Part shown: piece after piece, positions 29,666-42,667 of the stretch
Numbering within the stretch: the first letter of the stretch is position 1
Layout of the letters: each line of letters opens with the position of its first letter
NCBI GenBank assembly: GCA_017561665.1
Contig: JAFZBQ010000081.1
Coordinates: 23,881-87,880 of the forward strand
Length of the DNA stretch: 64,000 nucleotides
Direction of reading: 5' to 3'
Source of the DNA: Bacteroidales bacterium
GTDB lineage: Bacteria; Bacteroidota; Bacteroidia; Bacteroidales; UBA932
Program-made: the position numbers and the translations under genes
The notes under the pieces: generated by a model
Database searches by the model: none
What the model was told of the DNA's origin: nothing
What the model saw: the letters and a program-made list of their open reading frames with translations, nothing else

Positions 29666-29680
29666 TAAATTCACAAACAT

Positions 29681-29782
29681 ACCCTTAAAACAATTCAAGA
29701 TATGGGAAAACAAATAATTCTCAACATTGCGAATTATTCGCGAATTATTACTAACTTTGCATTGAAGACTTGTGGCGTATGA
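29681..29782 (+). pseudogene. Ghost 5' end of a second RhuM-like gene
   Basis: 29681-29710 matches 28625-28654 (leader plus ATG of the RhuM gene) at 26/30 ungapped positions. The residual ORF MGKQIILNIANY... stops after 26 codons. Confidence 0.5.
29752..29759 (+). promoter_or_regulatory. TAnnTTTG -7 box for higBA
   Basis: TAACTTTG, preceded by the near-palindrome TGCGAATTATTCGCGA (29728-29743). Confidence 0.45.
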
Positions 29783-30096
29783 ATGTGATGTTTGATAGCA
29801 CCGCTTTGGAAGAGTTGTATAGTATCGGAACGACATCGTCTCATATGTACAACAAGTTGCCCGCTGACATTATCAAACGGTTCGTCAAAACTGTTAATTA
29901 TTTGAAAGCGGCTCGACGAATAGAAGATTTGTATGTCATCAAGTCATTGCATTATGAGAAGAAATCCGGCGACTTGAATGGCGTAGAAGCCGTATGGATC
30001 AATGACCAATACCGCATATTGTTCAGTAGCTCGCCAAACGAAGAAGGCATAATAGTGAATGTGTTAATCACAGAAATATCCAAGCACTATGAGTAA
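29779..30096 (+). CDS. higB: HigB-type (plasmid maintenance killer, RelE/ParE superfamily) toxin
   Basis: About 105 aa. Overlaps the downstream HTH antitoxin by 8 nt, which is the toxin-first order typical of HigBA. The sequence ...VKTVNYLKAARRIEDL...WINDQYRILF is family-like. ATG 29779 or 29788. Confidence 0.75.
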   Translation: MNVMFDSTALEELYSIGTTSSHMYNKLPADIIKRFVKTVNYLKAARRIEDLYVIKSLHYEKKSGDLNGVEAVWINDQYRILFSSSPNEEGIIVNVLITEISKHYE

Positions 30097-30454
30097 GAAA
30101 GATTTGACCCCTTTTGTTGCAACACATCCTGGAGAACTTATAAAGGATGAGCTTCAGGCACGGAAGATGACACAAAAGCAACTGGCACAACTTGCCGGAA
30201 TTGCCGAATCTGTGCTTAGCGAAATAGTCAATGGCAAACGTAGTATTTCTATCAATACAGCAATTGCTTTAGAAAAGGCCATTGAGATACCCGCAGATTA
30301 TTGGGTGAATCTTCAATCCCAATACGATTTGGATTCATCCGTAATAGCCTTACGAGATAAAAAAAAAGCTACTGCGACACTTACCATTCCGGCTCGGGAT
30401 AGACGCCTGCTACAGGAAATTGCCCATAAGTTCGGTTGGGCGTGCGTGTTTTAG
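30089..30454 (+). CDS. higA: HigA-type HTH (XRE) antitoxin with C-terminal extension
   Basis: HPGELIKDELQARKMTQKQLAQLAGIAESVLSEIVNGKRSISINTAIALEKA is classic HigA. About 40 extra C-terminal residues. Confidence 0.8.
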   Translation: MSKKDLTPFVATHPGELIKDELQARKMTQKQLAQLAGIAESVLSEIVNGKRSISINTAIALEKAIEIPADYWVNLQSQYDLDSSVIALRDKKKATATLTIPARDRRLLQEIAHKFGWACVF

Positions 30455-30474
30455 CATATTCCCTTCTAAATCGC

Positions 30475-30520
30475 CTGGGACCGCAACGGAAAGAAGATTA
30501 ACACGAGGTCGGCGAGATAG
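30475..30520 (+). pseudogene. Ghost 3' end (last 15 codons plus stop) of a paralog of the 33046..33438 gene
   Basis: 42/46 nt identical to 33393-33438. All 4 differences are synonymous third positions (WDRNGKKINTRSAR*). Confidence 0.75.
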
Positions 30521-30717
30521 CAGGAAGGATGCCCCGAGTAACTGCTGCCCCCTTTATGCAGCTCATAACCGCGAAGTACAAATTGACGCCCGTCTTTGGA
30601 TTTCGCTACTGCATTACCCCCCGTTTTCCCCGTTATCTTGCAGCGAGACACAAATACTGGTCGTTATTTGTACCTCGGTTCACCGAAATGAGTATTTGTG
30701 AAATTATGAAATATTGG

Positions 30718-30725
30718 TAACTTTG
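30718..30725 (+). promoter_or_regulatory. TAnnTTTG -7 box for parDE
   Basis: TAACTTTG, followed by the TTGTACAA palindrome just before ATG 30743. Confidence 0.45.
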
Positions 30726-30742
30726 TGCAAACGTTTTGTACA

Positions 30743-30991
30743 ATGAAGACTACTTCTGTTGCGCTTGGCCAACATTTCGAGGAATTTATCCAGGCAAGCA
30801 TCCTAAGCGGGCGTTATAACAACGCCAGCGAAGTTGTCCGTTCCGGTCTCCGTCTTCTTGAGGATCGCGAGCAAAAAATGGCCGCGCTACGCTCTGCCAT
30901 CGAAGAGGGTTTGAATAGTGGTATTGTGGAAGATTTCGATACGCAGGATTTCCTGCTGCAGATGAAGGAGCGCAAATATGGCAAGATTTGA
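30743..30991 (+). CDS. parD: ParD-family antitoxin
   Basis: ORF trimmed to ATG 30743. MKTTSVALGQHFEEFIQASILSGRYNNASEVVRSGLRLLEDRE is typical of ParD/CopG-like antitoxins. Confidence 0.85.
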   Translation: MKTTSVALGQHFEEFIQASILSGRYNNASEVVRSGLRLLEDREQKMAALRSAIEEGLNSGIVEDFDTQDFLLQMKERKYGKI

Positions 30992-31295
30992 CATCACCAA
31001 AGAGGCCACAGACGACCTCTACAAGATTTGGGATTATACCGTTGATACCTGGTCAGAAGAACAGGCCGATAAGTATTATTCTGAGCTTATAGCCTCTTTT
31101 GAGGTCATTTCAGCCTCGCCATTAAATATCGGGAAGCCGTTTGATGAAATCATTCCGGGCATTCGCGGCCACCACGTCAGGCGGCATATGGTATTCTACG
31201 CCACGCAAGCTAACGGTCGAGTTCTGAGAGTTCGTGTTCTTCACGAGAAAATGGACTATCCACGCCACCTCAATCCATATATAGATGAGGCCTGA
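30978..31295 (+). CDS. parE: ParE/RelE-family toxin
   Basis: 105 aa, overlaps parD by 14 nt. DLYKIWDYTVDTWSEEQADKYYSEL...VLHEKMD is family-like. Confidence 0.85.
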   Translation: MARFDITKEATDDLYKIWDYTVDTWSEEQADKYYSELIASFEVISASPLNIGKPFDEIIPGIRGHHVRRHMVFYATQANGRVLRVRVLHEKMDYPRHLNPYIDEA

Positions 31296-31306
31296 CATCT
31301 GTCGCG

Positions 31307-31327
31307 CACTGCCATATTTTGGCAATA
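31307..31327. promoter_or_regulatory. Palindromic operator site 1 (CACTGCC-atatttt-GGCAATA)
   Basis: 7-N7-7 palindrome ending 46 nt before the AAA+ ATG. 31307-31326 is identical to 41202-41221. Confidence 0.6.
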
Positions 31328-31373
31328 TCATAGTATTTCTTTGCACCTTGAAAGAAAGGTTAAAAGTAATACT

Positions 31374-33014
31374 ATGGGAAACACTATCATTGACTTGATG
31401 TACAACATTAGGGAGAAGATGCGAAATGAGACAGGCGCAATGGCTATGTCAAATACTGGCAAAGCAAAAGATGAAATAGATGCACTCGCCGCAAGGCTTA
31501 ATCTGACTTCTATTCAATCTGTTTTTCTCACTGCAATTGTACAACGTTCTGGCAGGTATCGTCTGGACACGGACGACATCGCCTCTTTACTGGACCTTGA
31601 CTACCTTGACTTTCTCCGATACGACAGCGACTTGGAAACGCTGCGTAAACGCGGTTATATCCGTATTGACCTTGAGGGACAAATCACTATGCCTAAACAT
31701 GTGCTTAAAGCACTTAAAAATGATCAGGATATAACGCCTGAAACTGTCAGTGGTCTTTCAACAGGGCAGATACTTGTTCGCATCAAGCGTCAGCTAAGCT
31801 TTCTTGAAAACAATGAACAGAGCATAGAGGAGGTGTGCGAAATGGTCTGGCTATATATCACAGAGAATCCTGACACCAGTATCTCACGCACTTTCGCAAG
31901 GCATCGACGTATGAACCACATCATCGACAAAGAGTTAATTGTTCTTTGCGCACTTATCTTCAGATACTGGTTTAAGGACGACGATATGGTAGGATGGCAC
32001 GATATGGATGATTATTTCGAAGATGATGTGTTGGAAGATATGCGATCCTCATATTATGTAGAACATCTTATGTTACAGCGATGCGGCATCATAGAATTTA
32101 CTTCAGAAGGTGGTATGCTTACCAAAGACTACTTTCACATCAAGGATGACATCAAGGCCGAAATATTCGCTGATGTTGGTGGCCTAAAACAAAAAAAACA
32201 GCAAGTATCAGCCTCCCGCAAGCTCGAAGCCGGGCAGATATCACCAAAGGCGTTGTTCTACAACGATGCCGAGGGGCGTCAAGTGGAGCAGCTGCGCCTA
32301 TTGCTCAGCGAAAAGCGGTATGCAGAAATTCGCTCCAAGATTAAAGAAAAAGGTCTGCGCACAGGCTTCTCCTGCCTGCTTTACGGCGGTCCCGGCACAG
32401 GTAAGACCGAAACTGTGTACCAGCTAGCCCGCGAGTGCGGCCGCGACCTTTACATCGTGGACGTCTCCCAAATCAAGAGCTGCTGGGTCGGCGAGACCGA
32501 AAAGAACATCAAGGACGTGTTCAATAAATACCGTGCGTGCGTGGCCTCCGGCAGCACAGTGCCCATCCTCCTCTTCAACGAGGCCGACGCCATCTTCGGC
32601 ATCCGCCAGGAGGGCGCCTCCCGCGCCGTGGACAAGATGGAAAACAGCATGCAGAACATAATCCTCCAGGAGATGGAGGACCTCGACGGCATCCTGATAG
32701 CCACCACCAACCTCACCCAGAATCTGGACAGGGCATTCGAGCGCCGCTTCCTCTACAAGGTTCGCTTTAACAAGCCCTCCATGGAGGCCAAGACACACAT
32801 CTGGCAGACCATGATACCGTCACTCTCCGACGGCGAGGCAGAGCAGCTTGCCCGCGAGTTCGACCTCAGCGGCGGCCAGATAGAAAACGTTGCCCGCAAG
32901 AAAGCCATCAGTGACATAATCGGCCTTTCCGACAGCGGTTTCGACGCAATCCGCACCCTCTGCTCCGAGGAGACCATCACACGCTCGGCACCCATCAGAA
33001 AGATTGGGTATTAG
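31374..33014 (+). CDS. Classic-clade AAA+ ATPase with ~330-aa unknown N-terminal region
   Basis: ORF trimmed to ATG 31374. Walker A LLYGGPGTGKTE, Walker B ILLFNEADAIF, second region of homology ATTNLTQNLDRAFERRF. Confidence 0.85.
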   Translation: MGNTIIDLMYNIREKMRNETGAMAMSNTGKAKDEIDALAARLNLTSIQSVFLTAIVQRSGRYRLDTDDIASLLDLDYLDFLRYDSDLETLRKRGYIRIDLEGQITMPKHVLKALKNDQDITPETVSGLSTGQILVRIKRQLSFLENNEQSIEEVCEMVWLYITENPDTSISRTFARHRRMNHIIDKELIVLCALIFRYWFKDDDMVGWHDMDDYFEDDVLEDMRSSYYVEHLMLQRCGIIEFTSEGGMLTKDYFHIKDDIKAEIFADVGGLKQKKQQVSASRKLEAGQISPKALFYNDAEGRQVEQLRLLLSEKRYAEIRSKIKEKGLRTGFSCLLYGGPGTGKTETVYQLARECGRDLYIVDVSQIKSCWVGETEKNIKDVFNKYRACVASGSTVPILLFNEADAIFGIRQEGASRAVDKMENSMQNIILQEMEDLDGILIATTNLTQNLDRAFERRFLYKVRFNKPSMEAKTHIWQTMIPSLSDGEAEQLAREFDLSGGQIENVARKKAISDIIGLSDSGFDAIRTLCSEETITRSAPIRKIGY

Positions 33015-33045: not shown

Positions 33046-33438
33046 ATGCAGTTACAGCACAAAAACACCGTTATGAGCAAACTGTTCACTATCTTAGCGT
33101 TAGTTTTGGTTATGGGAACAAACACGCATCGCATCTCTTCTGTCGAAACCCACGGCAGCTGGATTTATTTCTACGACGAAACGGGCCACAAATATCAAAC
33201 CCTCTCCGTCTCCAGCGTTGGAGAGGTGCAGGGCTATAGCTCCACCTTTATGGTAAGCAGGAATGGCAGCTGGGTCTATCTATATGATTCGGAGGGGCGC
33301 AAATACCACACCATGAGCGCCAGCTACACAGGCGACGTGATTGGCGTTGCCGGCGACACCTTCACCACCCGCAACGGCAGCTGGATCTACACCTGGGACC
33401 GCAACGGCAAGAAGATCAATACAAGGTCGGCGAGATAG
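33046..33438 (+). CDS. Small secreted or membrane-anchored protein with three YD-like repeats
   Basis: 130 aa (alternative start ATG 33073) with a hydrophobic N-terminus LFTILALVLVMG. Three ~35-aa repeats: GSWIYFYDETGHKY, GSWVYLYDSEGRKY, GSWIYTWDRNGKKI. Confidence 0.65.
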   Translation: MQLQHKNTVMSKLFTILALVLVMGTNTHRISSVETHGSWIYFYDETGHKYQTLSVSSVGEVQGYSSTFMVSRNGSWVYLYDSEGRKYHTMSASYTGDVIGVAGDTFTTRNGSWIYTWDRNGKKINTRSAR

Positions 33439-33546: not shown

Positions 33547-34530
33547 ATGGCAACTATAGACAAGCTTCTTGCCGTGATTGAACGGTACAAGAACCTGGGC
33601 ATTGATTCGCAGATAGACTACGACAAGTTCTACCTGTATTCCATCATTACTCATTCCACGGCAATCGAAGGCTCAACAGTAACCGAGTTTGAGAACCAGA
33701 TGCTGTTCGACGAAGGCATTTCCGCCAAGGGCAAAACCATTGTCGAGCAGATGATGAACCTTGACCTTAAACGAGCCTACGAAGAGAGTATATCCCTGGC
33801 AAAAAAGCATACCCCGTTCAGCATCGATATGCTGTGCCAACTGGCACACCTTGTTATGGAACACACCGGTGCGACATACAAGACCGCCCTCGGAGATTTC
33901 TCCTCCGCCAATGGCGATTTGCGACTATTGAACGTCACCGCAGGTGTCGGTGGACAATCATATATGAGCTATCAGAAAGTACCGGCAAAACTGGAAGAGT
34001 TCTGCAAATGGCTGAACGCCGAAAGGGGGAAAGATCTCAATACCGCGCAGAGATACAACCTGAGCTTCGAGGCCCACTACAGGCTCGTAACAATTCACCC
34101 CTGGGCAGATGGTAATGGGCGTATGGCCCGATTGGTGATGAACCATCTCCAGTTTGAATTCGGCCTGGTTCCTACCAAGGTTTTAAAAGAAGACAAGGGT
34201 GATTACATCAATGCCCTCATCAATACCAGAGAATCCGGAGACATTGCCATCTTCCAAGAGTTTATGGTTGCGGAGATGGTCAAAACTTTGACCAAGGACA
34301 TTGACTTATTCGTCAAATCGACAGAAGAAGAAAGTAGGGAGAATAAGCCAAAAAGTAGGGAGAAAATTCTGGAGTTACTGCGAATTCATCCAGAGTACAC
34401 CACCGCCATCCTTGCGAAGGAAATCGGCGTCACCTCCAAAGCTATCGAAAAACAACTGGCCATCCTCAAGAAAGAAGGTCTCCTCCGCCGCGAAGGCTCC
34501 GACCGGAAAGGCAGATGGGTGGTGAAATAA
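33547..34530 (+). CDS. Fic family protein (class II, N-terminal inhibitory helix) with C-terminal winged-helix
   Basis: Fic motif HPWADGNGRMAR, inhibitory-type motif STAIEG near the N-terminus, and a C-terminal wHTH-like tail (ILELLRIHPEYTTAILAKEIGVTSKAIEKQLAILKKEGLLRREG). Confidence 0.85.
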   Translation: MATIDKLLAVIERYKNLGIDSQIDYDKFYLYSIITHSTAIEGSTVTEFENQMLFDEGISAKGKTIVEQMMNLDLKRAYEESISLAKKHTPFSIDMLCQLAHLVMEHTGATYKTALGDFSSANGDLRLLNVTAGVGGQSYMSYQKVPAKLEEFCKWLNAERGKDLNTAQRYNLSFEAHYRLVTIHPWADGNGRMARLVMNHLQFEFGLVPTKVLKEDKGDYINALINTRESGDIAIFQEFMVAEMVKTLTKDIDLFVKSTEEESRENKPKSREKILELLRIHPEYTTAILAKEIGVTSKAIEKQLAILKKEGLLRREGSDRKGRWVVK

Positions 34531-34571
34531 TCAAAACATATTATCCACTAATAGTTTTTGTCAGTAATAAA

Positions 34572-35942
34572 TCATTTCATACAACTATCAACTGCTTTTT
34601 CATATTCTCTAACTAATAACACTACTCGATCAATATCAACAATAGTCGAGGTAAAAATAAAGTCTTTCGGTATCACCCCTATAGTCATATATACTCCAGC
34701 TCCAAAACGGGAAGGGCGCTCGATCGGCAACTTCATTTCTTCACATACTCTCAGTAACTTGTAATGATATCGGTTTCTGCATTCTGATGGATTATATTCT
34801 CCGTTATATTCAATCTTTACACAAAGCTTGCTTTGTTCAAACTGAAGATACATTCTGACCTCGTCATTCTCAACGAAATGCCACCAGAGCCCAAGGAAGC
34901 CACCAGATGGATTTGCGACATAGCTCCAACTTTCAACATCAATACATTTCTCTAGAGCGCGATAAAAACCTTGCCATTCGTACCATCTCCATTCATCAAC
35001 CGAAACACTTCGATAATTATTGGTTGCATCTTCTATATCCTGAAGATGCTTGCGGTAATCCAGTACTAAAGGATTTGATCCATAATAATAGTTCAAGATT
35101 CCCAATAAAGCACCTCTATCAACAACTGAATAACCTAATTCATTAACAGCTTTTGCAATAGAGCCCGCCTCATTTTCTGTTTTAACATATGCGTAGAATA
35201 GTTTATCACGTTTATTATGATACTCATCTTCCACAGTTTTCCTATATCGGCTCAATTGATTATCATGAACGTATGTTCCTATTTTGTCTTCAATGATGAG
35301 GAATGCATCATCATTAATCTCTGCCCATACATCGATGTTTTCCCACTGTCTTCCAACATCAATCTTGTGAATATCTTCTTTACTCATACCTGTGAGCAAT
35401 GCTACAAGCGACTTTCCCAGATTAGACAATCCTTCATCCGTGGCCAAATAAGAATCATCCGCCCACTTTATTAACCAAGCAAGGATTGCATCTTGACTTA
35501 ATTCTGATGTGGCATATGAAAAAATATTTGGTGCATTACTGTCTGCCACAGTTGCATAATTCCTCAAGTATTCTCCATTTAACAACTCAGATAGTTTTAA
35601 CAGTCTTGGAGCATATAACTCCATATTATCGCTAAGGAAACTATAAAGGAAAGCCAGATTATCCTCATTGACAACTTTCTCTTCCATCGAAGTCGGCTTC
35701 TTCCTTATTGTGGAAATAAGTAGTATTGCCAAATCTAGAACTCGCCATAAAGGTAATTCTTCGCTTTGTCTAGACCACCGTTTTCCATCCTCAGACCATC
35801 TCCAGACTTTAGCTGACACATCTTCTGGGTTCCAAGTTGCCCTGCCAAGAGAAATAAACTTTGCATCTCCTGCATTCGCATCTATTTCGGAATAGTCAAT
35901 AGAAACAATGGGTTTATGTTTCAGATGCCGCGGTATTTCCAT
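34572..35942 (-). CDS. PD-(D/E)XK nuclease-like protein with unknown N- and C-terminal regions (gene G)
   Basis: 456 aa. SELSQDAILAWLIKWAD ... ENIDVWAEINDDAFLIIEDKIGTYVHDNQLSRY fits the D...(D/E)xK core of PDDEXK-type families (memory). The N-terminal ~140 aa are unassigned. Confidence 0.6.
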   Translation of the reverse strand: MEIPRHLKHKPIVSIDYSEIDANAGDAKFISLGRATWNPEDVSAKVWRWSEDGKRWSRQSEELPLWRVLDLAILLISTIRKKPTSMEEKVVNEDNLAFLYSFLSDNMELYAPRLLKLSELLNGEYLRNYATVADSNAPNIFSYATSELSQDAILAWLIKWADDSYLATDEGLSNLGKSLVALLTGMSKEDIHKIDVGRQWENIDVWAEINDDAFLIIEDKIGTYVHDNQLSRYRKTVEDEYHNKRDKLFYAYVKTENEAGSIAKAVNELGYSVVDRGALLGILNYYYGSNPLVLDYRKHLQDIEDATNNYRSVSVDEWRWYEWQGFYRALEKCIDVESWSYVANPSGGFLGLWWHFVENDEVRMYLQFEQSKLCVKIEYNGEYNPSECRNRYHYKLLRVCEEMKLPIERPSRFGAGVYMTIGVIPKDFIFTSTIVDIDRVVLLVREYEKAVDSCMK

Positions 35943-35978: not shown

Positions 35979-36245
35979 TTACCAGCTACTGTGCAGTTTT
36001 TCGTTCTCTTCATCGTCGAACATCCACGACGAATCGCCAGCGTCATCGAAAAGGGCGCTAATATCGTCTATAACACTTTCCTCCGTGTCATAACAGTCAT
36101 CTAAGTATCTATCCATATCCATTTCGAGCTGAGCCGCATAACGCTCAGCCTCTCCTTCATGAAATGCATACTTTCCAATAACGATTGGATTACCGCTGTA
36201 GCGTTCAAGTTTTTGTTGCAATTCTGCAAGTTCCTTTCTAGTCAT
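35979..36245 (-). CDS. Hyperacidic small protein (gene F)
   Basis: 88 aa. By my count 24 Asp/Glu versus 8 Lys/Arg. C-terminal half DMDRYLDDCYDTEESVIDDISALFDDAGDSSWMFDDEENE. Confidence 0.6.
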   Translation of the reverse strand: MTRKELAELQQKLERYSGNPIVIGKYAFHEGEAERYAAQLEMDMDRYLDDCYDTEESVIDDISALFDDAGDSSWMFDDEENEKLHSSW

Positions 36246-36272
36246 TTGGATTCCGCTTTTAAGATAGAACGT

Positions 36273-36659
36273 TTATGCTATCATGAATTCGCCAGGTTCA
36301 ACACCGTCCAATAATGATTGTACTGTTTTGATTATCTCATCATCTGACATGACATCTCTATTATCAACATACTCTTTGAACGCCATTACTTCATCAGTAA
36401 ATCTATTAAGTGAAAGGTATAAACGGGCTCTCAAATCCTCCATACTTTGATTTCCAACCAAAGGCTCTTGTAATTCAAAAATATCCTTTGCAGCGGTATT
36501 TACATCTGTATCATTAAAGCCCAGAGCCATTATATCCGTTATCCATCTACTTATTAAAGCATTATTGTCGTAAATGTTATCCAAATTGCCGATTCTATAG
36601 ATCCTTTTCATAAGACTCTCCTGGATCAACATCTTAACATCTTGTTCGATTTCGTACAT
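36273..36659 (-). CDS. Hypothetical protein (gene E)
   Basis: 128-aa ORF, 27 nt upstream of F. No family recognised. Confidence 0.6.
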   Translation of the reverse strand: MYEIEQDVKMLIQESLMKRIYRIGNLDNIYDNNALISRWITDIMALGFNDTDVNTAAKDIFELQEPLVGNQSMEDLRARLYLSLNRFTDEVMAFKEYVDNRDVMSDDEIIKTVQSLLDGVEPGEFMIA

Positions 36660-36727: not shown

Positions 36728-37507
36728 TCATATTATAATCTTCCATCCCTTTCGTTTAGCGAGGATATCCCAATCGCCGGGGACGTCGGCTGGTATAATG
36801 ATTTGTGGCGGATTGTCAAACAGATCATGTCGATGAAACTGCGGAAGTTTTGAGAACAAGTGGAGTAGCCAGTCTGAATTAATTGGATTTCCTCCTATGT
36901 TTATGCTTTTAATGTTTGGATTAACGTCGCTGACAAATACTTGTTTTAAGCGATTTAATTCAAGGCTAATGTGTTCTGTTCTTTGAATGTTAAGCAGATA
37001 GCATTCTGTTAAGTTTTGACCACTACAAATGAAGGATTTGCATTCTCCGAAGATGTATATGGGCGAGTTTGTGTCATGCTTTACTGTAATTTCACATATT
37101 CGGTTCTCATCATAATCTAACCCTATCGTTAATTCCGCATAACGGTGCTTTAGTGTTGTTACTATTCTCAACGGAGTCAGCGGCATAATGGACATTTCAA
37201 TAGACGATCTGGGACTATTGAGCACTATTGAGGGATTAGATTGTTTAGCGTGCACCATTCGCGATTTGGTATGTTCATAGAGTTCTCGCCGCAGCACCCC
37301 AAAATCCTTACTCGAATAACTCAATTCACATAAGGGCATGTCTTTCAATCCGCGCACTATGTCGTAATCTATTTTCCACTCCTTGCACAACTCCCGCCAG
37401 CCGTCTTTACGGCCAGCCAAGTATATTAATCGCTTCCTCATCTTGCCATTGGAAGCGACCTTCTCCTTGAAGTTAATCAGGTTAAGTTGTTTGCGAAATT
37501 CTTGCAT
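36728..37507 (-). CDS. LRR-like protein, paralog 1 (P1)
   Basis: 259 aa, roughly 40% identical by eye to 38174..38953. The C-terminal third is LRR-like (ISLELNRLKQVFVSDVNPNIKSINIGGNPI). Confidence 0.65.
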   Translation of the reverse strand: MQEFRKQLNLINFKEKVASNGKMRKRLIYLAGRKDGWRELCKEWKIDYDIVRGLKDMPLCELSYSSKDFGVLRRELYEHTKSRMVHAKQSNPSIVLNSPRSSIEMSIMPLTPLRIVTTLKHRYAELTIGLDYDENRICEITVKHDTNSPIYIFGECKSFICSGQNLTECYLLNIQRTEHISLELNRLKQVFVSDVNPNIKSINIGGNPINSDWLLHLFSKLPQFHRHDLFDNPPQIIIPADVPGDWDILAKRKGWKIII

Positions 37508-37588
37508 GGCGCGATACTAATCATCGTTAATGCCATTATCTAGCAGTGTAATTAATTGCCTGTGAACTACGATGAAATCCCACACGAA

Positions 37589-37610
37589 TACAACACAAAT
37601 GTTGTACAAC
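37589..37610. promoter_or_regulatory. Palindromic operator candidate in the P1/XRE divergent region
   Basis: TACAAC-acaaat-GTTGTACAAC. GTTGTACAAC is itself a perfect 10-nt palindrome. A TAGCTTTG -7 box for the XRE gene lies at 37625-37632. Confidence 0.5.
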
Positions 37611-37660
37611 TCAAATATTGTTCTTAGCTTTGCGGAAAACTAAATGCAGAAAAATATCCT

Positions 37661-37993
37661 ATGAGTAAAGCAATTGAATTTCTGAATGCGCACAAGTCCC
37701 CCACTAATGCAAAGTGGCGCGAAGAAGCTCAGTGGCGGAAGGATAATGAGTACTGGCTAAAGTATGCGCAGATAATCACTCTGGCAGTACATAAAAGCAT
37801 GGACGAGAACAACCTGACCCAAGCTCAATTAGCAGAGAGGATGGGTTGTACCCAGCAATACGTATCCAATCTTCTGAAGGGTAACACCAACATGACAATC
37901 GAAACTATTGCTCGTCTTGAGATTGCCCTAAATTTAGATCTTATCAAGACTGCTCTATCCTCAGTTCTATCGGCTAGGACAACAAAAACTTAG
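37661..37993 (+). CDS. XRE-family HTH transcriptional regulator
   Basis: 110 aa. LTQAQLAERMGCTQQYVSNLLKGNTNMTIETIARLEIAL is a typical HTH_3. Confidence 0.8.
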   Translation: MSKAIEFLNAHKSPTNAKWREEAQWRKDNEYWLKYAQIITLAVHKSMDENNLTQAQLAERMGCTQQYVSNLLKGNTNMTIETIARLEIALNLDLIKTALSSVLSARTTKT

Positions 37994-37997
37994 TTCC

Positions 37998-38093
37998 GTT
38001 GATGCAAAGACTCATATCTGGCAGACCATGATACCGTCGCTCTCCGCCGGCGAGGCGGAGCATATTCAGCACCAGTCAAAGAGTGGCGGTTAA
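37998..38093 (+). pseudogene. Ghost 3' end of a paralogous AAA+ ATPase gene
   Basis: 38004-38060 aligns with 32787-32843 of the intact AAA+ gene. It translates VDAKTHIWQTMIPSLSAGEAEHIQHQSKSGG* versus MEAKTHIWQTMIPSLSDGEAEQLAREFDLSGGQ; most differences in the conserved part are synonymous. It starts 4 nt after the XRE stop. Confidence 0.75.
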
Positions 38094-38173: not shown

Positions 38174-38953
38174 TCACTTATTGGAACCCAATACACGCCA
38201 TCCACGTCTTTCTGCAAGTGCCTTCCAATTTCCGGGAATACCAGAGAAAGAGATAACATGTACTTCATCAGGATTCTTCTTACGGTCCACGTAAGGCAGT
38301 TGAGAGATAAAACCAGGGATATAGCCTTCATCGAGAGGGTTATCCGCAAGAATTACCACTGCCAATTTGGGATTGATGCTACCAATGGGAATTGTGGTTA
38401 ACCGGTTCCCGGTCAACCAAATCCCTTCCAACCTGGGGTTATTAAGCAAATAGCACTCTGTCAACTCTTGGCCACCGCATTGAAACATTATAAAATCCCC
38501 AAAAATGTATATCGGCGAGCCCGAATCATGGTTAATTAATGGACATGCCAAATGGATACCGGCAGGTTGTACCACGTACTCAGAATAGCGATGTTGTTTA
38601 GTCGTTACTATCCGCAATGGGGCTAATGGCTTAAAGTACATTTGAATTTTCTTCTGGGGGCTGTTTAGAATAATGGCAGGACCGCACTCCCTTGCATTTA
38701 TCATACGCTGCTTGGTCGCTTCATACAACCTATACCGCATTTCCATAAAGTCATTTGAGAGATAGTTCAACTCTGAGATAGACATATTCTTTAGCCCACA
38801 CAATACGTCATAATCTTCCATCCACTCCTTACTCAACTCCAGCCAGCCATCCTCCTTCCCAAGAAGCTCTACTATTCGATCTCGTTTCTTTGGTGTGTTG
38901 GTAATCTTCTTTTTTAAGTTAATCAGTTCTAACTGTTTACGAAAAGTATCCAT
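38174..38953 (-). CDS. LRR-like protein, paralog 2 (P2)
   Basis: 259 aa. LTGNRLTTIPIGSINPKLAVVILADNPL is a canonical LRR pattern. Shared blocks with P1: FRKQL.LIN, PL.PLRIVTT, SPIYIFG, LTECYLLN. Confidence 0.65.
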   Translation of the reverse strand: MDTFRKQLELINLKKKITNTPKKRDRIVELLGKEDGWLELSKEWMEDYDVLCGLKNMSISELNYLSNDFMEMRYRLYEATKQRMINARECGPAIILNSPQKKIQMYFKPLAPLRIVTTKQHRYSEYVVQPAGIHLACPLINHDSGSPIYIFGDFIMFQCGGQELTECYLLNNPRLEGIWLTGNRLTTIPIGSINPKLAVVILADNPLDEGYIPGFISQLPYVDRKKNPDEVHVISFSGIPGNWKALAERRGWRVLGSNK

Positions 38954-38972
38954 AATAGCCGATGTCTAATAG

Positions 38973-39443
38973 CTAATCTCCCCAAGTCATCATTCTTTCT
39001 GAGAGGATCTTCCAGAACAGCATCCAGGCCTTGTCGAAGCGCAAGCGCTGGGGTTCAGACCAGAAGATTTCTCCGTGGTAATTTGTGCTGGGAATGCGTG
39101 CACGGTTGCGCATATTGACATAGTGTTTGAAAGACTCAGGCTTGGGTTGCCAATCATCTTCCAACTCGTACTCATAGTCCTTTTCGCCACCCTTAGCCTT
39201 GATGATATCCATCATCTTCTGTGCGCATTGTATCTGATTGGCATAGTAGGGGCCATTGGCCGCGTATGACAAGTGCCGGTTGTACCGCTCCATTGTTTCG
39301 AGCTTAGCCCTTATGACTTCAAGAAGGTATTCGTAGTCCCAGTCTTCGTTGAAAGCCATTCTCCAGCGTCTTTCTGCCCATTCATGATGGAACTGCATTT
39401 CTCTTTGGCGTTCTGTTGCTTGTTGTTTGTTATAGTGTGCCAT
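38973..39443 (-). CDS. Hypothetical Trp/Tyr-rich protein (gene B)
   Basis: 156-aa ORF, 3 nt downstream of gene A and 19 nt upstream of P2. No family recognised. Confidence 0.6.
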   Translation of the reverse strand: MAHYNKQQATERQREMQFHHEWAERRWRMAFNEDWDYEYLLEVIRAKLETMERYNRHLSYAANGPYYANQIQCAQKMMDIIKAKGGEKDYEYELEDDWQPKPESFKHYVNMRNRARIPSTNYHGEIFWSEPQRLRFDKAWMLFWKILSERMMTWGD

Positions 39444-39446
39444 ATC

Positions 39447-40241
39447 TTAGTCTTTGCTTGGTTCTATTAATGAGTAACGATTCCCAGCCTGATCGGACCT
39501 TTGCCGGTGCACTATTTTGACTTCGCACCAGAAATCGTTCATTCGAAGAAGGTCGGGTAGTGAATAGCACTTATGCACGCACAGGTCGTGCACTGCATGA
39601 CAGATGCAGATGTCTTTGAACTGCTCGCGTGTCAGAGCTCCCGCTGCCCATGAATTGCCATCATCGAGATAGTTTTCCAAACCGAATTCACTAACGGGCA
39701 TTTCCGGACGGTGTTCAAGATCGAATGTGGTTCTGCAGAAAGCGCATTCCGGCTCGTATATAGCCACATAATAATCATAGAGTATCTCAAGCATTGTCAC
39801 GTAATCTGAGCCATATATGTCGCTTATCTGATAGCCATTTTTCAGCTCCTCTTCTTTCCATATTATTGAATCATCCCAACGGCAGAACACATAGCCAACA
39901 GTCCCTTCAATTGATATCATATCGTCAAACTCCTTATCATAGCCGCCATTCAGTATAGCACGGTAAAGATTGCTGGCTTTAGAATACATCTGGCGAGTCA
40001 GCTCGGTCAAACGAGTGTTTACCTTTTCAAAGCCGGCCACCTCTTCAGGAGTGCAGAGAAACATATCATTAAGCAGATTGGAGCGCTCCTGGAGCAATTC
40101 CTTCAATCTCTCTTTTGTTTCTGTATCCCATTTGAAAGACTGGCTTGTATAAGGCCATCCGCCACCACCAATGAAGTAGTTCGCCACCTGTTTTATTTGC
40201 TTTTCAAGACTCGTTAATTGCTGTTTCTGTTGCATATTCAT
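39447..40241 (-). CDS. Hypothetical protein with C-terminal Cys/His cluster (gene A)
   Basis: 264-aa ORF, first gene of a tight three-gene operon. Has CAFC ... CICHAVHDLCVHKC. No family recognised. Confidence 0.6.
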   Translation of the reverse strand: MNMQQKQQLTSLEKQIKQVANYFIGGGGWPYTSQSFKWDTETKERLKELLQERSNLLNDMFLCTPEEVAGFEKVNTRLTELTRQMYSKASNLYRAILNGGYDKEFDDMISIEGTVGYVFCRWDDSIIWKEEELKNGYQISDIYGSDYVTMLEILYDYYVAIYEPECAFCRTTFDLEHRPEMPVSEFGLENYLDDGNSWAAGALTREQFKDICICHAVHDLCVHKCYSLPDLLRMNDFWCEVKIVHRQRSDQAGNRYSLIEPSKD

Positions 40242-40279: not shown

Positions 40280-40344
40280 CTATGCCAAAAAGTGGCAGTC
40301 AAAGAAAATGGGAGTAAAAGATAGACTGCCGGAAAATGGCAGTC
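40280..40344. promoter_or_regulatory. Palindromic operator sites 2 and 3 in the divergent promoter region
   Basis: Site 2 at 40280-40300 is CTATGCC-aaaaagt-GGCAGTC, 38 nt from ATG 40241 on the minus strand. Site 3 at 40324-40344 is GACTGCC-ggaaaat-GGCAGTC, perfect, 41 nt from ATG 40386. Confidence 0.6.
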
Positions 40345-40385: not shown

Positions 40386-40997
40386 ATGAATGTATTTGAA
40401 CCACAGTTTTACCCCTTCACTCTACCAAACGCCTTTCATTTGCTTATTGCAGGTAATTCAAGGCAAGAAGTAGATTACTTCATCAATCAGACTATCAAGT
40501 CTCTGCATCCAAATGAATCGAACAATGAGCCTTGCTCAACGACATTCCTTGACACGCGAGAGATGCCATTACCCATTATTAACGACAAACTTAATGCTGT
40601 AATAGAAGGTCTCGAGTTAAGATACAAACGGCAAAAGATGGAACATTTTTTAACGGTCATTATAAATGATTTTGCAGACATAGTGCCTGATCAGGCGACC
40701 TTTAAATCGATGGTAAAGATTGCAGAAAAAGGACGGCGTGTAGGCATACACTTGATTGCAGGCACCAGCCATATTAATGAAGATGTCATTACCGGCCAGA
40801 TCAAGGCTCTGTTTCCAACAAGGCTCGCACTTCACACATCAAACAGAAAACAATCCAAGTTGGTTTTAGACTGTGCCGGTGCAGAACTACTGGCCGATCA
40901 CGGAGAGTGTTTATTATTTCACATAGATACCGTTTCTCACTGTCTTTATGATGATCCTGATGCAGTCGGTTCAATTAATAACAATGAACATGAATAG
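40386..40997 (+). CDS. FtsK/SpoIIIE-like P-loop domain protein with degenerate Walker A and B motifs
   Basis: ORF 40308..40997 trimmed to ATG 40386. HLLIAGNSRQEVD sits where FtsK has HLLIAGATGSGKS. VIINDFADI replaces the Walker B pattern (hhhhDExxD). IAEKGRRVGIHLIAGTSHINEDVITGQIKALFPTRLALHTSNRKQSKLVLDCAGAELL parallels the FtsK motor core. Confidence 0.6.
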   Translation: MNVFEPQFYPFTLPNAFHLLIAGNSRQEVDYFINQTIKSLHPNESNNEPCSTTFLDTREMPLPIINDKLNAVIEGLELRYKRQKMEHFLTVIINDFADIVPDQATFKSMVKIAEKGRRVGIHLIAGTSHINEDVITGQIKALFPTRLALHTSNRKQSKLVLDCAGAELLADHGECLLFHIDTVSHCLYDDPDAVGSINNNEHE

Positions 40998-41187
40998 ACT
41001 TGAGGATAACAGAGTAATCCTTGATAAACTCGGTAAACTGATAGAAACATACCCGGATCAACGCTTCGGGCAGTTAATTGCTAACTATATATTTCCAAAA
41101 TACCGGGAGGAGGATATCTTTTGGGAAGAGTCTGAAGAAACTGCACAAAGGGTGACTTCTTTCAGCCAGAAAGAACAATCAGAATAA
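40984..41187 (+). CDS. Small hypothetical protein, start overlapping the FtsK-like stop
   Basis: About 67 aa (MNMNRLEDNRVILDKLGKLIETYPDQRFGQLIANYIF...). ATG 40984 (or 40990) overlaps stop 40995-40997, which suggests translational coupling. Confidence 0.5.
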   Translation: MNMNRLEDNRVILDKLGKLIETYPDQRFGQLIANYIFPKYREEDIFWEESEETAQRVTSFSQKEQSE

Positions 41188-41201: not shown

Positions 41202-41222
41202 CACTGCCATATTTTGGCAATT
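41202..41222. promoter_or_regulatory. Palindromic operator site 4 (CACTGCC-atatttt-GGCAATT)
   Basis: Ends 38 nt before the WYL ATG. Shares an identical 20-mer with site 1. Confidence 0.6.
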
Positions 41223-41260: not shown

Positions 41261-42169
41261 ATGGCGAAGAACTTTTTCAAACGTTACATTTGGCTTATTG
41301 ATCTGCTGTACAAGCGCGGGCACGCGACCTTTGAACAGATAAGCCGTGCGTGGGCGTTCAGCCACGTGAATGAGACCGGTGAAAGTAGTCTACCGCAACG
41401 CACATTCTTTAACCACATAGCGGCTATAGAGGATATCTTTGACATAGTCATTAAGTGCAACCGCACCTCCGGCGAATATTTCATTGCAAATACAGACGAC
41501 CTGGAGGGCGACGGCATCCGCAACTGGCTGCTGCAGTCCATATCGCTGAATAACCTGCTTGAAGAGAGTGCCGGGATGCGCGACCGAATCCTCTTCGAAA
41601 AGGTGCCGTCCAGCCAAGATTGGCTGACGGATATTATTGATGCTATGCGTGCCGACAGAGCAATCGAGTTGACCTATCAGAGTTTCCATCGCAACGAGCC
41701 ATCAACCTTCATTGCACATCCATACTGCCTCAAACTGTTCAAGCAGCGTTGGTATCTGCTGGCTCGAAGCGAAGAGTACAAACAGCCTAGAATCTATGCG
41801 CTGGACCGTATCCACAACATCCAGCCGAGCGAAATCAAATTGAAGTTACCCCGCAAGTTCGATGCGGAGAAGTTCTTCGACAACTACTTTGGAATAATTG
41901 CAGACACCGAAGTCTATGCACAAACAGTCAAAATTAAGGTTGATGAGGATCAGGTTGGATATTTCAATTCGCTGCCGCTCCATCATTCACAGAAGGAGAT
42001 TGAGACTACCGATGAGTACTCCATTTTCGAGTATAAACTTGCGCCGACATTTGATTTCGAGCAGGAAATCCTATCCCATGGACCATCGGTCGAGGTGTTG
42101 GAACCTGCCGGCTTACGCGATTGGGTCGCTTCCGATGCGACAAAAATGGCAAGCATTTACATTAAGTAG
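41261..42169 (+). CDS. HTH-WYL domain transcriptional regulator
   Basis: 302 aa. N-terminal wHTH-like segment (YIWLIDLLYKRGHATFEQISRAW). WYL-domain core AIELTYQSFHRNEPSTFIAHPYCLKLFKQRWYLLARSEEYKQPRIYALDRI. Confidence 0.8.
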   Translation: MAKNFFKRYIWLIDLLYKRGHATFEQISRAWAFSHVNETGESSLPQRTFFNHIAAIEDIFDIVIKCNRTSGEYFIANTDDLEGDGIRNWLLQSISLNNLLEESAGMRDRILFEKVPSSQDWLTDIIDAMRADRAIELTYQSFHRNEPSTFIAHPYCLKLFKQRWYLLARSEEYKQPRIYALDRIHNIQPSEIKLKLPRKFDAEKFFDNYFGIIADTEVYAQTVKIKVDEDQVGYFNSLPLHHSQKEIETTDEYSIFEYKLAPTFDFEQEILSHGPSVEVLEPAGLRDWVASDATKMASIYIK

Positions 42170-42172
42170 TCT

Positions 42173-42667
42173 ATGACCGACTTTGCCGCGATAGATTTCG
42201 AGACTGCGAACGAGTGCCCTTCAAGCGTGTGCAGCGTGGGTGTCGTGGTGGTGCGCGACGGCATCGTAACGGACAAATTCTACAGCCTGATACATCCTGA
42301 GCCGGAGTACTACAAGTGGTTTTGCCAGCAGGTCCACGGGCTCTGCCCGGAAGACACGGAAGATGCACCGGTTTTCCCCTATGTGTGGGAAAAGATTGAG
42401 CCGCTTATAGAGGGCCTGCCGCTGGTTGCACATAACGCCCGGTTCGACGAAGGGTGCCTCAAGTCGGTTTTCCGTGTATATCGGATGGATTATCCGGATT
42501 ATGTCTTCTACGATACGCTGACCGCTTCCCGCAGGCATTTCGGCCAGTGTCTTCCCAATCACCAGCTCCATACGGTGGCAGAAGCCTGCGGCTTCGACCT
42601 TAGGCATCATCACCACGCCCTGGCCGATGCCGAAGCTTGCGCGCACATCGCGTTGCAATTACTATAA
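42173..42667 (+). CDS. DEDDh 3'-5' exonuclease (DnaQ/epsilon-like)
   Basis: 164 aa. ExoI AIDFETAN, ExoII VAHNARFDEGCL, ExoIII HHALADAEA. Starts 3 nt after the WYL stop. GC looks core-like again. Confidence 0.85.
   Translation: MTDFAAIDFETANECPSSVCSVGVVVVRDGIVTDKFYSLIHPEPEYYKWFCQQVHGLCPEDTEDAPVFPYVWEKIEPLIEGLPLVAHNARFDEGCLKSVFRVYRMDYPDYVFYDTLTASRRHFGQCLPNHQLHTVAEACGFDLRHHHHALADAEACAHIALQLL

What the first reader, a model, noticed from the sequence alone, without database searches (positions are those of the whole stretch)
38174..40241. Tight three-gene operon (A 264 aa, B 156 aa, P2 259 aa) with no recognisable families except an LRR tail
The intergenic gaps are 3 and 19 nt and all three genes are on the same strand. 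The operon is headed by operator site 2. A has a Cys/His cluster, B is Trp/Tyr-rich and charged, and P2 ends in canonical leucine-rich repeats (LTGNRLTTIPIGSINPKLAVVILADNPL).

I recognise no enzymatic effector, which is unusual for an operon in a TA- and defence-rich island. LRRs are classic ligand-sensing modules, so this may be a sensor-type module or an array of immunity-like proteins.
Basis: partly seen in the sequence, partly recalled or inferred. Interest (0 to 1): 0.65.

Follow-up and report, generated by a model that had tools for sequence, protein, structure and literature searches.

The report
WYL-controlled orphan gene pair plus LRR passenger
The three genes are real, but only the first two (A and B) form a conserved unit: an uncharacterised pair that sits behind a conserved operator next to a WYL-type stress/defence regulator in gut Bacteroidales. 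The third gene (P2) is a rare leucine-rich-repeat passenger.

Summary
A (39447-40241), B (38973-39443) and P2 (38174-38953) lie on the minus strand with 3- and 19-nt gaps. None matches Pfam, NCBIfam, PHROGs or PADLOC.

The three genes are not one conserved unit. A-B adjacency recurs in 12 other distinct loci (in one only a B remnant is left), all Bacteroidales-type. P2/P1 relatives are absent from the roughly 30 other loci that carry a clear A gene. The P family is tiny, and its LRR tail is confirmed at family level.

A-B heads one arm of a divergent module. The other arm is [AAA or FtsK-like ATPase]-small gene-[HTH-WYL-WCX regulator]-[epsilon-like exonuclease]. A palindrome, ACTGCCA-N5-TGGCA(GT), occurs at four sites in the window against 0.13 expected, and it lies 52-56 nt upstream of A in eight related loci. 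Some A homologues carry a fused WYL domain, and one B domain is fused to DprA. Neighbouring genes are GmrSD, PDC-S26, PLD, McrBC and toxin-antitoxin genes.

A gives a confident model (pLDDT 89) with no match in PDB or BFVD.

Best reading: a WYL-gated module of unknown biochemistry inside an accessory defence island. This is a new variant of a known kind. Interest is moderate.

The parts
39447..40241 (-). Gene A (264 aa, pI 4.8): first gene of the operon. It belongs to an orphan family with the invariant motif YSxPDLLRMNDFWxE and a Cys/His cluster.
   Evidence: - ORF.
- 76 homologue clusters, all unnamed.
- Invariant columns.
- AF2 model with pLDDT 89 and pTM 0.86, with no Foldseek match in PDB or BFVD.
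38973..39443 (-). Gene B (156 aa): helical, Trp/Tyr-rich partner that always lies directly downstream of A.
   Evidence: - ORF.
- 42 homologue clusters.
- In every locus read, B lies next to A with a gap of 18 nt or less.
- One DprA-B fusion occurs in L016.
- AF2 model has pLDDT 67 and is all helical; there is no Foldseek match.
38174..38953 (-). Gene P2 (259 aa, pI 8.8): N-terminal helical region, a beta-rich middle, 2-3 leucine-rich repeats (about residues 170-210) and a C-terminal cap. It is a variable passenger, not part of the conserved A-B unit.
   Evidence: It is absent from the other loci that carry a clear A gene.
40283..40299 (.). Candidate WYL-regulator box in front of A (ACTGCCACTTTTTGGCA on the minus strand). 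It lies 41 nt upstream of the A ATG and about 12 nt upstream of a Bacteroides-type -7 element (TAGCTTCG).
   Evidence: The same box lies at -52 to -56 from the A start codon in L001, L008, L009, L011, L014 and L015, and at -88 in L010.
40325..40343 (.). Second, fully symmetric box (GACTGCCGGAAAATGGCAGTC). It faces the FtsK-like gene.
   Evidence: Gene callers start the FtsK-like gene at 40386, so this box is intergenic.
40386..40997 (+). FtsK/SpoIIIE-like motor-domain protein (203 aa) with a degenerate Walker A motif (HLLIAGNSRQEV). It is the first gene of the divergent arm.
   Evidence: - PHROG FtsK-like hit at 1.7e-15; PADLOC mad8 and SspH hits.
- NCBIfam FtsK at 2.3e-13.
- 29% identical to the 374-aa FtsK-like protein at the same position in L052, which also lacks GK[ST].
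40948..41187 (+). Small ORF (79 aa; called as 65 aa elsewhere) between the FtsK-like gene and the WYL gene.
   Evidence: It weakly resembles the C-terminal extension of long A homologues (hhalign E=0.0027, probability 11%). This is a lead, not a finding.
41203..41219 (.). Box in front of the WYL regulator gene (ACTGCCATATTTTGGCA), 42 nt upstream of its ATG.
   Evidence: It is identical to the box at 31308.
41261..42169 (+). HTH-WYL-WCX transcription regulator (302 aa).
   Evidence: - Pfam WYL at 3.4e-18 and WCX at 1.8e-12.
- The nearest solved relatives are PafBC and DriD.
- Homologues occur in 17 of about 33 A loci.
42173..42667 (+). DEDD 3'-5' exonuclease (RNase_T / DNA polymerase III epsilon-like, 164 aa), co-directional with the WYL gene.
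   Evidence: - Pfam RNase_T at 5.3e-16.
- PDB PolC exonuclease, DinG exonuclease and epsilon subunit.
- 79-84% identical in L009-L012.
36728..37507 (-). P1, a 44%-identical paralogue of P2. It heads a second operon, P1-o128-o88.
35979..36659 (-). o128 (36273-36659) and o88 (35979-36245), two small acidic ORFs downstream of P1. o128 has homologues inside A operons elsewhere.
   Evidence: o128 is 57% identical to an ORF between WYL and A in L009, and 50% identical to an ORF downstream of A-B in L011.
37661..37993 (+). Xre-type HTH_3 regulator, divergent from P1. The intergenic region carries palindromes (ACAACAcaaaTGTTGTACAAC).
31308..33014 (+). Fourth box (31308-31324) followed by an AAA ATPase (546-557 aa, IetA/TRIP13-like). 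This is the ATPase that occupies the position divergent from A in L001, L010, L011 and L047.
34572..35942 (-). DUF6530 + PD-(D/E)XK (PDDEXK_4) protein, PDC-S26-like. It is co-directional with A-B-P2 and P1-o128-o88.
   Evidence: PDDEXK_4/PDC-S26 genes recur downstream of A-B in other loci.

Best explanation
**What it is.** A-B is the conserved leading gene pair of one arm of an accessory, horizontally spread module of gut and rumen Bacteroidales. The module is [epsilon-like exonuclease <- HTH-WYL-WCX regulator <- small gene <- AAA or FtsK-like ATPase] | [A -> B -> variable cargo]. It sits inside a defence island. P2 is one of the variable cargo genes: a small LRR protein, duplicated in this island as P1.

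**Shown**
- A-B adjacency with short coupling gaps.
- Recurrent linkage to the WYL regulator.
- The ACTGCCA-N5-TGGCA(GT) palindrome in front of A, the ATPase genes and the WYL gene.
- WYL-A and DprA-B fusions.
- Defence-gene neighbours.

**Inferred mechanism**
1. The WYL regulator binds the boxes. They overlap the -33 region, about 12 nt upstream of the TAnnTTTG -7 element.
2. The regulator switches both arms when its WYL domain senses a nucleic-acid signal, such as ssDNA from phage replication or DNA damage. This is by analogy with DriD, PafBC, SiwR and BrxR.
3. A is an acidic alpha/beta protein with no structural match in the libraries searched. I take it to be the component whose activity is coupled to that signal. 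The coupling is transcriptional here and direct in relatives where a WYL domain is fused to A and no separate regulator is present.
4. B is A's translationally coupled helical partner. The DprA fusion ties it to ssDNA handling.
5. LRR proteins (P2 here, the unrelated LRR_4 family 'c7' elsewhere) act as exchangeable binding or specificity subunits.

The biochemical activity of A-B is unknown.
For: **A-B adjacency**
- A and B are adjacent in L001, L008-L011, L014, L015, L047, L050, L052 and L054. L012 keeps only a B remnant.
- Every B-profile hit lies directly after an A, except the DprA-B fusion in L016, which lies 1.2 kb from an A gene.

**Link to the WYL regulator**
- A WYL regulator homologue is present in 17 of about 33 distinct A loci. 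Three more loci have WYL fused to A and no separate regulator.
- Most of the remaining loci are short or cut contigs.

**Operator**
- The box count is 4 sites against 0.13 expected.
- Its position upstream of A is fixed across eight loci, and it also lies upstream of the WYL and AAA genes.

**The window's layout is a recurring variant**
- The left arm in the window (FtsK-like, small ORF, WYL, exonuclease) matches L052/L053. The AAA variant is seen in L001, L010, L011 and L047.

**Defence context**
- GmrSD-like genes occur in 10 loci and PDC-S26 in at least 6 (E=2.5e-90). PLD, McrBC and an IetA-like AAA protein also occur.
- The window island has low GC.

**Not phage or plasmid genes**
- IMG/VR gave 1 hit in 2.9 million contigs and GenBank phages gave 1 in 50,697 records. 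Both hits are the same chromosomal-type locus. There were no plasmid hits.

**Published precedent**
- BrxR-family WYL regulators bind inverted repeats with a 5-bp spacer and co-localise with defence islands (PMC9122601).
- WYL activators sense ssDNA and bind just upstream of the -10 element (PMC10693628).
Against: - No biochemical or structural clue to the activity of A or B was found.
- The B model has low confidence (pLDDT 67).
- The regulator-box link is inferred only from position and conservation.
- The regulator's nearest solved relatives are the DNA-damage activators PafBC and DriD rather than BrxR or CapW. Much of the recurrent cargo looks like replication or repair genes: a DnaB C-terminal domain, an N-terminal DnaE fragment, DprA and an epsilon-like exonuclease. 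A damage-response role is therefore not excluded.
- A is acidic with many conserved Asp/Glu residues, but no catalytic motif can be assigned.
- The LRR association is loose: 4 loci with family c7, plus this window and L044/L045 with P.
Confidence: 0.5

Rival explanations
1. **DNA-damage (SOS-like) response cassette.** The WYL regulator is a PafBC/DriD-type activator. A-B, the exonuclease, the ATPases and the DnaB_C/DnaE-fragment/DprA cargo serve repair or damage tolerance rather than defence against phages.
For: - The nearest solved relatives of the regulator are PafBC (5e-5) and DriD (2.5e-3).
- The box lies immediately upstream of the -7 element, as for WYL activators.
- The cargo includes an epsilon-like exonuclease, DprA, a DnaB C-terminal domain and a DnaE N-terminal fragment.
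Against: - The distribution is patchy: 25 loci in one genome for each of 185,579 species.
- The island has low GC and its gene content varies strongly from locus to locus.
- It is densely packed with GmrSD, McrBC, PDC-S26, PLD and toxin-antitoxin genes.
- The FtsK-like proteins lack a Walker A lysine, and the DnaE and DnaB copies are truncated.
Confidence: 0.2
2. **Part of an integrated mobile element.** A, B and P2 would be early or accessory genes of a satellite, a prophage remnant or an ICE, under a WYL-type master repressor.
For: - One IMG/VR contig and one 'UNVERIFIED Bacteriophage sp.' record carry an A homologue.
- Replication-type genes recur nearby.
- Gene remnants show cassette shuffling.
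Against: - Both 'viral' records are the same chromosomal-type A-WYL-exonuclease-GmrSD locus and carry no phage hallmark gene.
- A, B and P2 have no PHROG hits.
- There are no plasmid hits.
- No integrase, capsid, terminase or tra genes were seen in the loci read.
Confidence: 0.08
3. **Immunity-protein array**. P1, P2 and other repeat proteins would neutralise interbacterial toxins, as in the acquired interbacterial defence clusters of Bacteroidales.
For: Small cytoplasmic repeat proteins occur as paralogues or tandem copies: P1/P2 here, three c5 copies in L020 and three c7 LRR copies in L024.
Against: - No match to any Pfam immunity family was found.
- No toxin fragment, recombinase or T6SS gene was seen in the loci.
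- This reading does not explain A-B, the WYL boxes or the WYL-A fusions.
Confidence: 0.07
4. **A-B is a toxin-antitoxin-like pair** (abortive-infection type), and P2 is unrelated.
For: - The two genes are tightly coupled, with gaps of 0-18 nt or an overlap.
- The island holds HigBA and ParDE.
Against: - Neither protein matches any toxin-antitoxin family.
- Neither has a DNA-binding antitoxin domain.
- Several loci carry A paralogues or divergent A genes without B, for example L004, L013, L019-L028 and the extra A copies in L014 and L015.
Confidence: 0.07

Closest known systems
BrxR-family HTH-WYL-WCX regulators and the defence islands they control (Picton et al. 2022, PMC9122601)
   Same: - A regulator with the same domain architecture lies at the edge of a defence island.
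- Inverted repeats with a 5-bp spacer occur upstream of the regulator gene and at a second promoter.
- Type IV restriction and toxin-antitoxin genes lie alongside.
   Different: - The regulated front genes (A-B) belong to no known defence system.
- The regulator is not detectably closer to BrxR than to PafBC or DriD.
- An epsilon-like exonuclease and an AAA or FtsK-like ATPase share the regulator's arm.
- The host range is Bacteroidales.
PafBC, DriD and SiwR: ssDNA-sensing WYL activators of DNA-damage regulons (PMC10693628)
   Same: - They are the nearest solved relatives by sequence.
- Their binding site lies directly upstream of the -10/-7 promoter element.
- The neighbouring genes are repair-like.
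   Different: - Those regulons are chromosomal core functions of Actinobacteria and Caulobacter.
- This module is patchy and variable, and it is embedded among restriction and toxin-antitoxin genes.
Stand-alone bacterial LRR proteins, and the LRR sensor domains of NLR-like defence proteins (own knowledge)
   Same: P2 and P1 carry 2-3 canonical LxxLxLxxNxL units that a family profile recognises in solved LRR structures.
   Different: - P2 has only a mini-LRR, about 60 residues.
- It has no NTPase or effector domain in the same chain.
- The N-terminal 150 residues are family-specific. They also occur as a separate 88-92-aa gene in L044/L045 and L055.
PADLOC candidate PDC-S26 and GmrSD/HEC-06 type IV restriction genes
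   Same: They are recurrent neighbours in the same arm as A-B.
   Different: A, B and P2 themselves match no PADLOC model.

Membership tests
WYL-regulated (BrxR/CapW/PafBC/DriD-type) gene module | An HTH-WYL-WCX regulator is encoded next to the regulated genes. | tested here: met
   - Pfam WYL at 3.4e-18 and WCX at 1.8e-12 for 41261-42169.
- Homologues lie next to A in 17 loci.
WYL-regulated (BrxR/CapW/PafBC/DriD-type) gene module | A shared inverted-repeat operator lies upstream of the regulator gene and of the regulated operon. | tested here: met
   - ACTGCC-N7-GGCA occurs at 31308, 40283, 40325 and 41203, against 0.13 expected.
- Its position upstream of A is conserved in eight loci.
WYL-regulated (BrxR/CapW/PafBC/DriD-type) gene module | The regulator binds the operator, and a ligand on the WYL domain changes expression. 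| not testable with these tools
   This needs EMSA, reporter or RNA-seq experiments.
Anti-phage defence system | Enrichment next to known defence genes. | tested here: met
   GmrSD/HEC-06, McrBC, PDC-S26, PLD, an IetA-like AAA protein, toxin-antitoxin pairs and Fic lie within 10 kb of A in most loci. No formal genome-wide enrichment statistic was computed.
Anti-phage defence system | Protection against phage when the system is expressed. | not testable with these tools
   This is an experiment.
Leucine-rich repeat proteins (Pfam clan LRR) | Tandem LxxLxLxxNxL units recognised by LRR profiles. | tested here: met
   - P2 alone scores LRR_4 E=0.42, below threshold.
- The family profile hits LRR structures at 2e-13.
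- Homologue P0124 scores 33.2 bits against a cut-off of 27.
Type II toxin-antitoxin pair (A-B) | Match to a known toxin or antitoxin fold or family, with a DNA-binding antitoxin. | tested here: not met
   No hits in Pfam, NCBIfam or PADLOC. No Foldseek hits.
Prophage structural or early proteins | Homologues in phage genomes or PHROG families. | tested here: not met
   - PHROGs: nothing for A or P2, and only E=0.012 for B.
- IMG/VR gave 1 locus and GenBank phages gave 1 unverified record. Both are the chromosomal-type locus.
Bacteroidales acquired interbacterial defence (immunity-gene) clusters | Known T6SS immunity families, toxin remnants or an associated recombinase. | tested here: not met
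   None was seen among the called genes of the window island or of the related loci. The test is limited to Pfam-level recognition.

The most novel reading that the evidence does not exclude
A-B, together with exchangeable repeat-protein partners (P-type or c7-type LRR, c5 'DWxxLS' repeats), P-loop-defective FtsK-like proteins and truncated replisome paralogues (DnaE N-terminal fragment, DnaB C-terminal domain, epsilon-like exonuclease, DprA), forms a previously undescribed WYL-gated anti-phage system of gut Bacteroidales.

In this reading A is an effector of unknown fold. A nucleic-acid-sensing WYL domain switches it on, either through transcription or, in fused versions, directly. The replisome-like pieces act as baits or guards for phage takeover of replication.
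Probability: 0.2. Interest if true: 0.8.

Novelty: new variant of a known kind. Interest (0 to 1): 0.55.

Why it matters
Gut and rumen Bacteroidales are abundant and under heavy phage pressure, yet much of their defence repertoire is still uncharacterised.

This analysis defines a reusable genomic signature: the A-B pair, the ACTGCCA-N5-TGGCAGT box, an HTH-WYL-WCX regulator, an epsilon-like exonuclease and an AAA or FtsK-like ATPase. The signature marks variable islands full of restriction and candidate defence genes.

It also supplies two orphan protein families. One gives a confident model with no structural match, and some of its members are fused to a WYL sensor. Both are concrete targets for finding a new effector or a new output of WYL signalling.

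If the module turns out to be a DNA-damage regulon instead, it would be evidence for a WYL-controlled damage response in Bacteroidales.

Tried and rejected
**Searches that found nothing for A, B, P1 or P2**
- Pfam, PHROGs, PADLOC and NCBIfam scans of the single proteins, and member-by-member Pfam scans of the A and B alignments. The only signal was the WYL fusion in 3 A members and weak NOT1-connector hits for B, which reflect helical composition.
- Foldseek of the A model against PDB and BFVD and of the B model against PDB. No match had E<0.4.
- Profile searches of A and B against PDB sequences. They returned only coiled-coil or designed helical proteins.

**Searches for P2 relatives**
- The word-indexed search found only one P2 relative, an internal-deletion variant.
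- Scans of viral and JGI metagenome contigs found none.
- The full HMM scan found about a dozen family members.

**Remote similarities that stayed weak**
- P against the c7 LRR family and the c5 repeat family by hhalign: not significant. The two families share only a similar C-terminal 'R-x-G-[GW]-x-[IV]' ending, seen by eye.
- B against c37, and the small ORF at 40948-41187 against the C-terminal extension of long A homologues: hhalign E about 0.003 with probability about 11%. I keep these as leads only.

**Other**
- The sigma-70 promoter scan is uninformative for Bacteroides promoters.
- Literature searches found no description of this module.
- P2 could not be modelled, because only two structure jobs were allowed and its alignment is shallow.
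Full report
**1. Observation**

The window holds three minus-strand ORFs at exactly the stated coordinates: A 39447-40241 (264 aa), B 38973-39443 (156 aa) and P2 38174-38953 (259 aa). The gaps are 3 nt and 19 nt. No terminator-like site on the minus strand interrupts them. The same three genes are called on several independent metagenome contigs that carry an identical island. A has a Cys/His cluster at residues 212-225, and B is 12% Trp+Tyr and 31% charged. None of A, B, P2 or the paralogue P1 matches any model in Pfam, PHROGs, PADLOC or NCBIfam at a meaningful level. Scanning 28 A homologues and 20 B homologues one by one against Pfam does not change this.

**2. P2 and its LRR**

P2 has a 44%-identical paralogue, P1 (36728-37507). 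P1 heads a second minus-strand operon (P1-o128-o88) that is divergent from an Xre-type HTH gene.

P2 alone scores only E=0.42 against LRR_4. The family-level evidence is clear:
- A full HMM scan of 1.84 billion representatives with a P1/P2 profile found about a dozen family members. It also found more than 100 large multi-LRR proteins that match positions about 143-256.
- Pfam confirms those large proteins as LRR_4/LRR_8. Family member P0124 passes the LRR_4 gathering score.
- The family profile hits solved LRR structures at E=2e-13.

P2 therefore has a helical N-terminal region, a beta-rich middle, a mini-LRR of 2-3 units (about residues 170-210) and a short cap.

The family is very rare. The word-indexed 5.8-billion-protein search found one hit. 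IMG/VR, JGI contigs and GenBank phages gave none.

**3. A and B are a conserved pair; P2 is not part of it**

A has 76 homologue clusters, all unnamed. In one genome per species of GTDB it has 25 loci, nearly all labelled as Bacteroidales or Bacteroidia MAGs from gut and rumen. B has 42 clusters.

I searched the window's proteins against all fetched loci by tblastn and with family profiles. B lies directly downstream of A in L001, L008-L011, L014, L015, L047, L050, L052 and L054, with gaps of 0-18 nt or a short overlap. L012 keeps only a B remnant. A B-centred look-up (P0102) again found A immediately upstream.

No locus with a clear A gene contains a P homologue. In relatives the genes after B are usually a 106-112-aa protein (c46) and then a DnaB C-terminal-domain protein. 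P2 occupies that position here.

The short contigs that do carry P relatives show these arrangements:
- P next to a divergent A-like 212-aa ORF in L044/L045. The A profile detects it at E=1.4e-4, and it is 53% identical to an A paralogue in L015.
- P next to GmrSD in L034.
- P next to unknown genes in L055.

An unrelated LRR_4 family (c7) lies beside A in L007, L023, L024 and L027. LRR proteins are thus recurrent but exchangeable neighbours of A.

**4. The real context: a divergent WYL module**

Upstream of A, on the other strand, lie four genes:
- an FtsK-like protein (40386-40997) with a degenerate Walker A motif;
- a small ORF;
- an HTH-WYL-WCX regulator (41261-42169);
- an epsilon-like DEDD exonuclease (42173-42667).

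The same arrangement occurs in L052/L053. In L001, L010, L011 and L047 an AAA ATPase replaces the FtsK-like gene. The window keeps a copy of that AAA gene at 31374-33014. A WYL regulator homologue is present in 17 of about 33 distinct A loci. Most loci without one are short or cut contigs.

In L007, L027 and L028 there is no separate regulator, and A itself carries an N-terminal WYL domain (Pfam 1.9e-8 for P0068). Other domain links are:
- a DprA-B fusion in L016 (DNA_processg_A at 1.5e-26; B profile at 3.5e-16);
- DprA directly upstream of A in L020;
- a DUF6557-like region fused to A in L017/L018, supported only weakly (E=0.0024, below threshold);
- a roughly 75-residue C-terminal extension on many A proteins.

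**5. The operator**

The palindrome ACTGCC-N7-GGCA occurs at 31308, 40283, 40325 and 41203. That is 5 strand matches against 0.13 expected, and none of 100 shuffles reached 5. Each site is 40-65 nt upstream of a start codon: the AAA gene, A, the FtsK-like gene and the WYL gene.

I oriented the sequences on A. In L001, L008, L009, L011, L014, L015 and the window, the box lies 52-56 nt before the ATG and about 12 nt before a Bacteroides-type TAnnTTTG -7 element. L010 and L012 have variant versions. In related loci the box also lies in front of the WYL or AAA genes and in front of some cargo operons.

This matches published behaviour of WYL regulators. BrxR binds inverted repeats with a 5-bp spacer at two promoters of a defence island (PMC9122601). 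WYL activators bind just upstream of the -10 element and respond to ssDNA (PMC10693628). Binding by the regulator in this window is inferred, not shown.

**6. Nature of the island**

The window region from about 28.5 to 42.7 kb has lower GC than its flanks. It carries RhuM-Fic, HigBA, ParDE, a Fic protein and a PDC-S26-like PD-(D/E)XK protein.

Related loci carry these genes next to A:
- GmrSD/HEC-06-like genes (10 loci);
- PDC-S26 (E=2.5e-90);
- PLD, McrBC and bpMoxR-VWA;
- truncated replisome-type genes: a DnaE N-terminal fragment (TIGR00594, 3.9e-134) and a DnaB C-terminal domain.

Short remnants of the AAA gene (37995-38062) and of ORF 33046-33438 (30474-30520) show cassette turnover.

A is almost absent from viral collections. 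It has one IMG/VR contig and one unverified 'Bacteriophage sp.' record, and both are the same chromosomal-type A-WYL-exonuclease-GmrSD locus. It is absent from plasmids.

**7. Structure**

A gives a confident AlphaFold2 model (pLDDT 89, pTM 0.86). It has a helical N-terminal part and a small alpha/beta domain that holds the invariant residues: the FDDD motif, the Y143/S145 region, C214 and YSxPDLLRMNDFWxE. Foldseek finds nothing in PDB or BFVD; the best E-values are 2.3 and 0.42. B is predicted as a helical bundle at low confidence (pLDDT 67), also without matches. No AlphaFold DB library was available, so 'no known fold' is provisional.

**8. Interpretation**

The best-supported reading has four parts:
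- A-B is the conserved front pair of a WYL-controlled arm in an accessory Bacteroidales defence or conflict island.
- A is the component coupled to the WYL signal.
- B is its partner, with a link to ssDNA handling.
- LRR proteins such as P2 are exchangeable binding modules.

The biochemical activity remains unknown. The main rival is a WYL-dependent DNA-damage response, because the regulator's nearest solved relatives are PafBC and DriD and much of the cargo is repair-like. Immunity-array, mobile-element and toxin-antitoxin readings have little support.

**9. Verdict**

The operon is real, sits in a defence island and contains an LRR protein, but it is not a conserved three-gene unit, and its defining context, the WYL module, was missed.
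- Novelty: a new variant of a known kind, namely a WYL-regulated defence island with two orphan core families.
- Interest is moderate (0.55).

Noticed in passing
window 37995-38062 and 30474-30520: Two short gene remnants. A 68-nt stretch right after the HTH gene is 87% identical to the 3' part of the AAA gene (32778-32845). A 47-nt stretch after HigA is 91% identical to the 3' end of ORF 33046-33438. Both indicate cassette replacement inside the island.
   Followed up: partly
window 40386-40997; L052 6785-7909: The FtsK/SpoIIIE-like proteins of this module lack the Walker A GK[ST]. The window has HLLIAGNSRQEV and L052 has HLLIAGTSEQGQ. They are probably unable to bind or hydrolyse ATP in the usual way.
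   Followed up: partly
window 37575-37625: Overlapping palindromes (ACAACAcaaaTGTTGTACAAC) lie in the 153-nt region between P1 and the divergent Xre-type HTH gene. This is a candidate operator for a second, WYL-independent circuit controlling P1-o128-o88.
   Followed up: no
L024, L029, L031, L012, L050; L009, L047, L052, L054: Truncated paralogues of replisome proteins recur in the A arm. They include a 692-767-aa N-terminal part of DnaE (PHP + polymerase core + fingers) and a 342-353-aa protein that is only the DnaB C-terminal domain. The latter often follows a conserved 106-112-aa ORF.
   Followed up: partly
L004-L006 5118-5636, L020 5719-7393, L047 2260-2778, L054 4986-5501: A 170-185-aa family made of roughly 24-residue 'DWxxLSxN' repeats, with no Pfam or PADLOC match. 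It recurs in these islands between the ATPase and the WYL gene, and as a tandem triplet in L020.
   Followed up: partly
window 33046-33438: A 130-aa ORF with a hydrophobic N-terminus and three 111-nt tandem repeats (GSW[IV]Y.YD..G.KY), directly after the AAA gene. It has only weak DUF5711/DUF5050 hits.
   Followed up: no
window 28514-31295 and 33547-35942: Other defence or toxin genes in the island:
- RhuM-Fic (28514-29665)
- HigB/HigA (29770-30454)
- ParD/ParE (30725-31295)
- Fic with a C-terminal wHTH (33547-34530)
- DUF6530 + PDDEXK_4, PDC-S26-like (34572-35942)

   Followed up: partly
L034 16-492 (P0077): A P2-like gene with an in-frame internal deletion (158 aa: residues about 1-76 joined to about 177-259), directly upstream of a GmrSD gene. 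N- and C-terminal P fragments (P0121, P0123) are also common, so P genes may decay often, or they lie at contig ends.
   Followed up: no
L057 (MT837679.1) and L033 (IMGVR_UViG_3300029614_000221): Two records labelled as viral carry only the chromosomal-type GmrSD-exonuclease-WYL | A locus, with no phage hallmark gene detected. They are probably misclassified, or host DNA in a viral fraction.
   Followed up: yes
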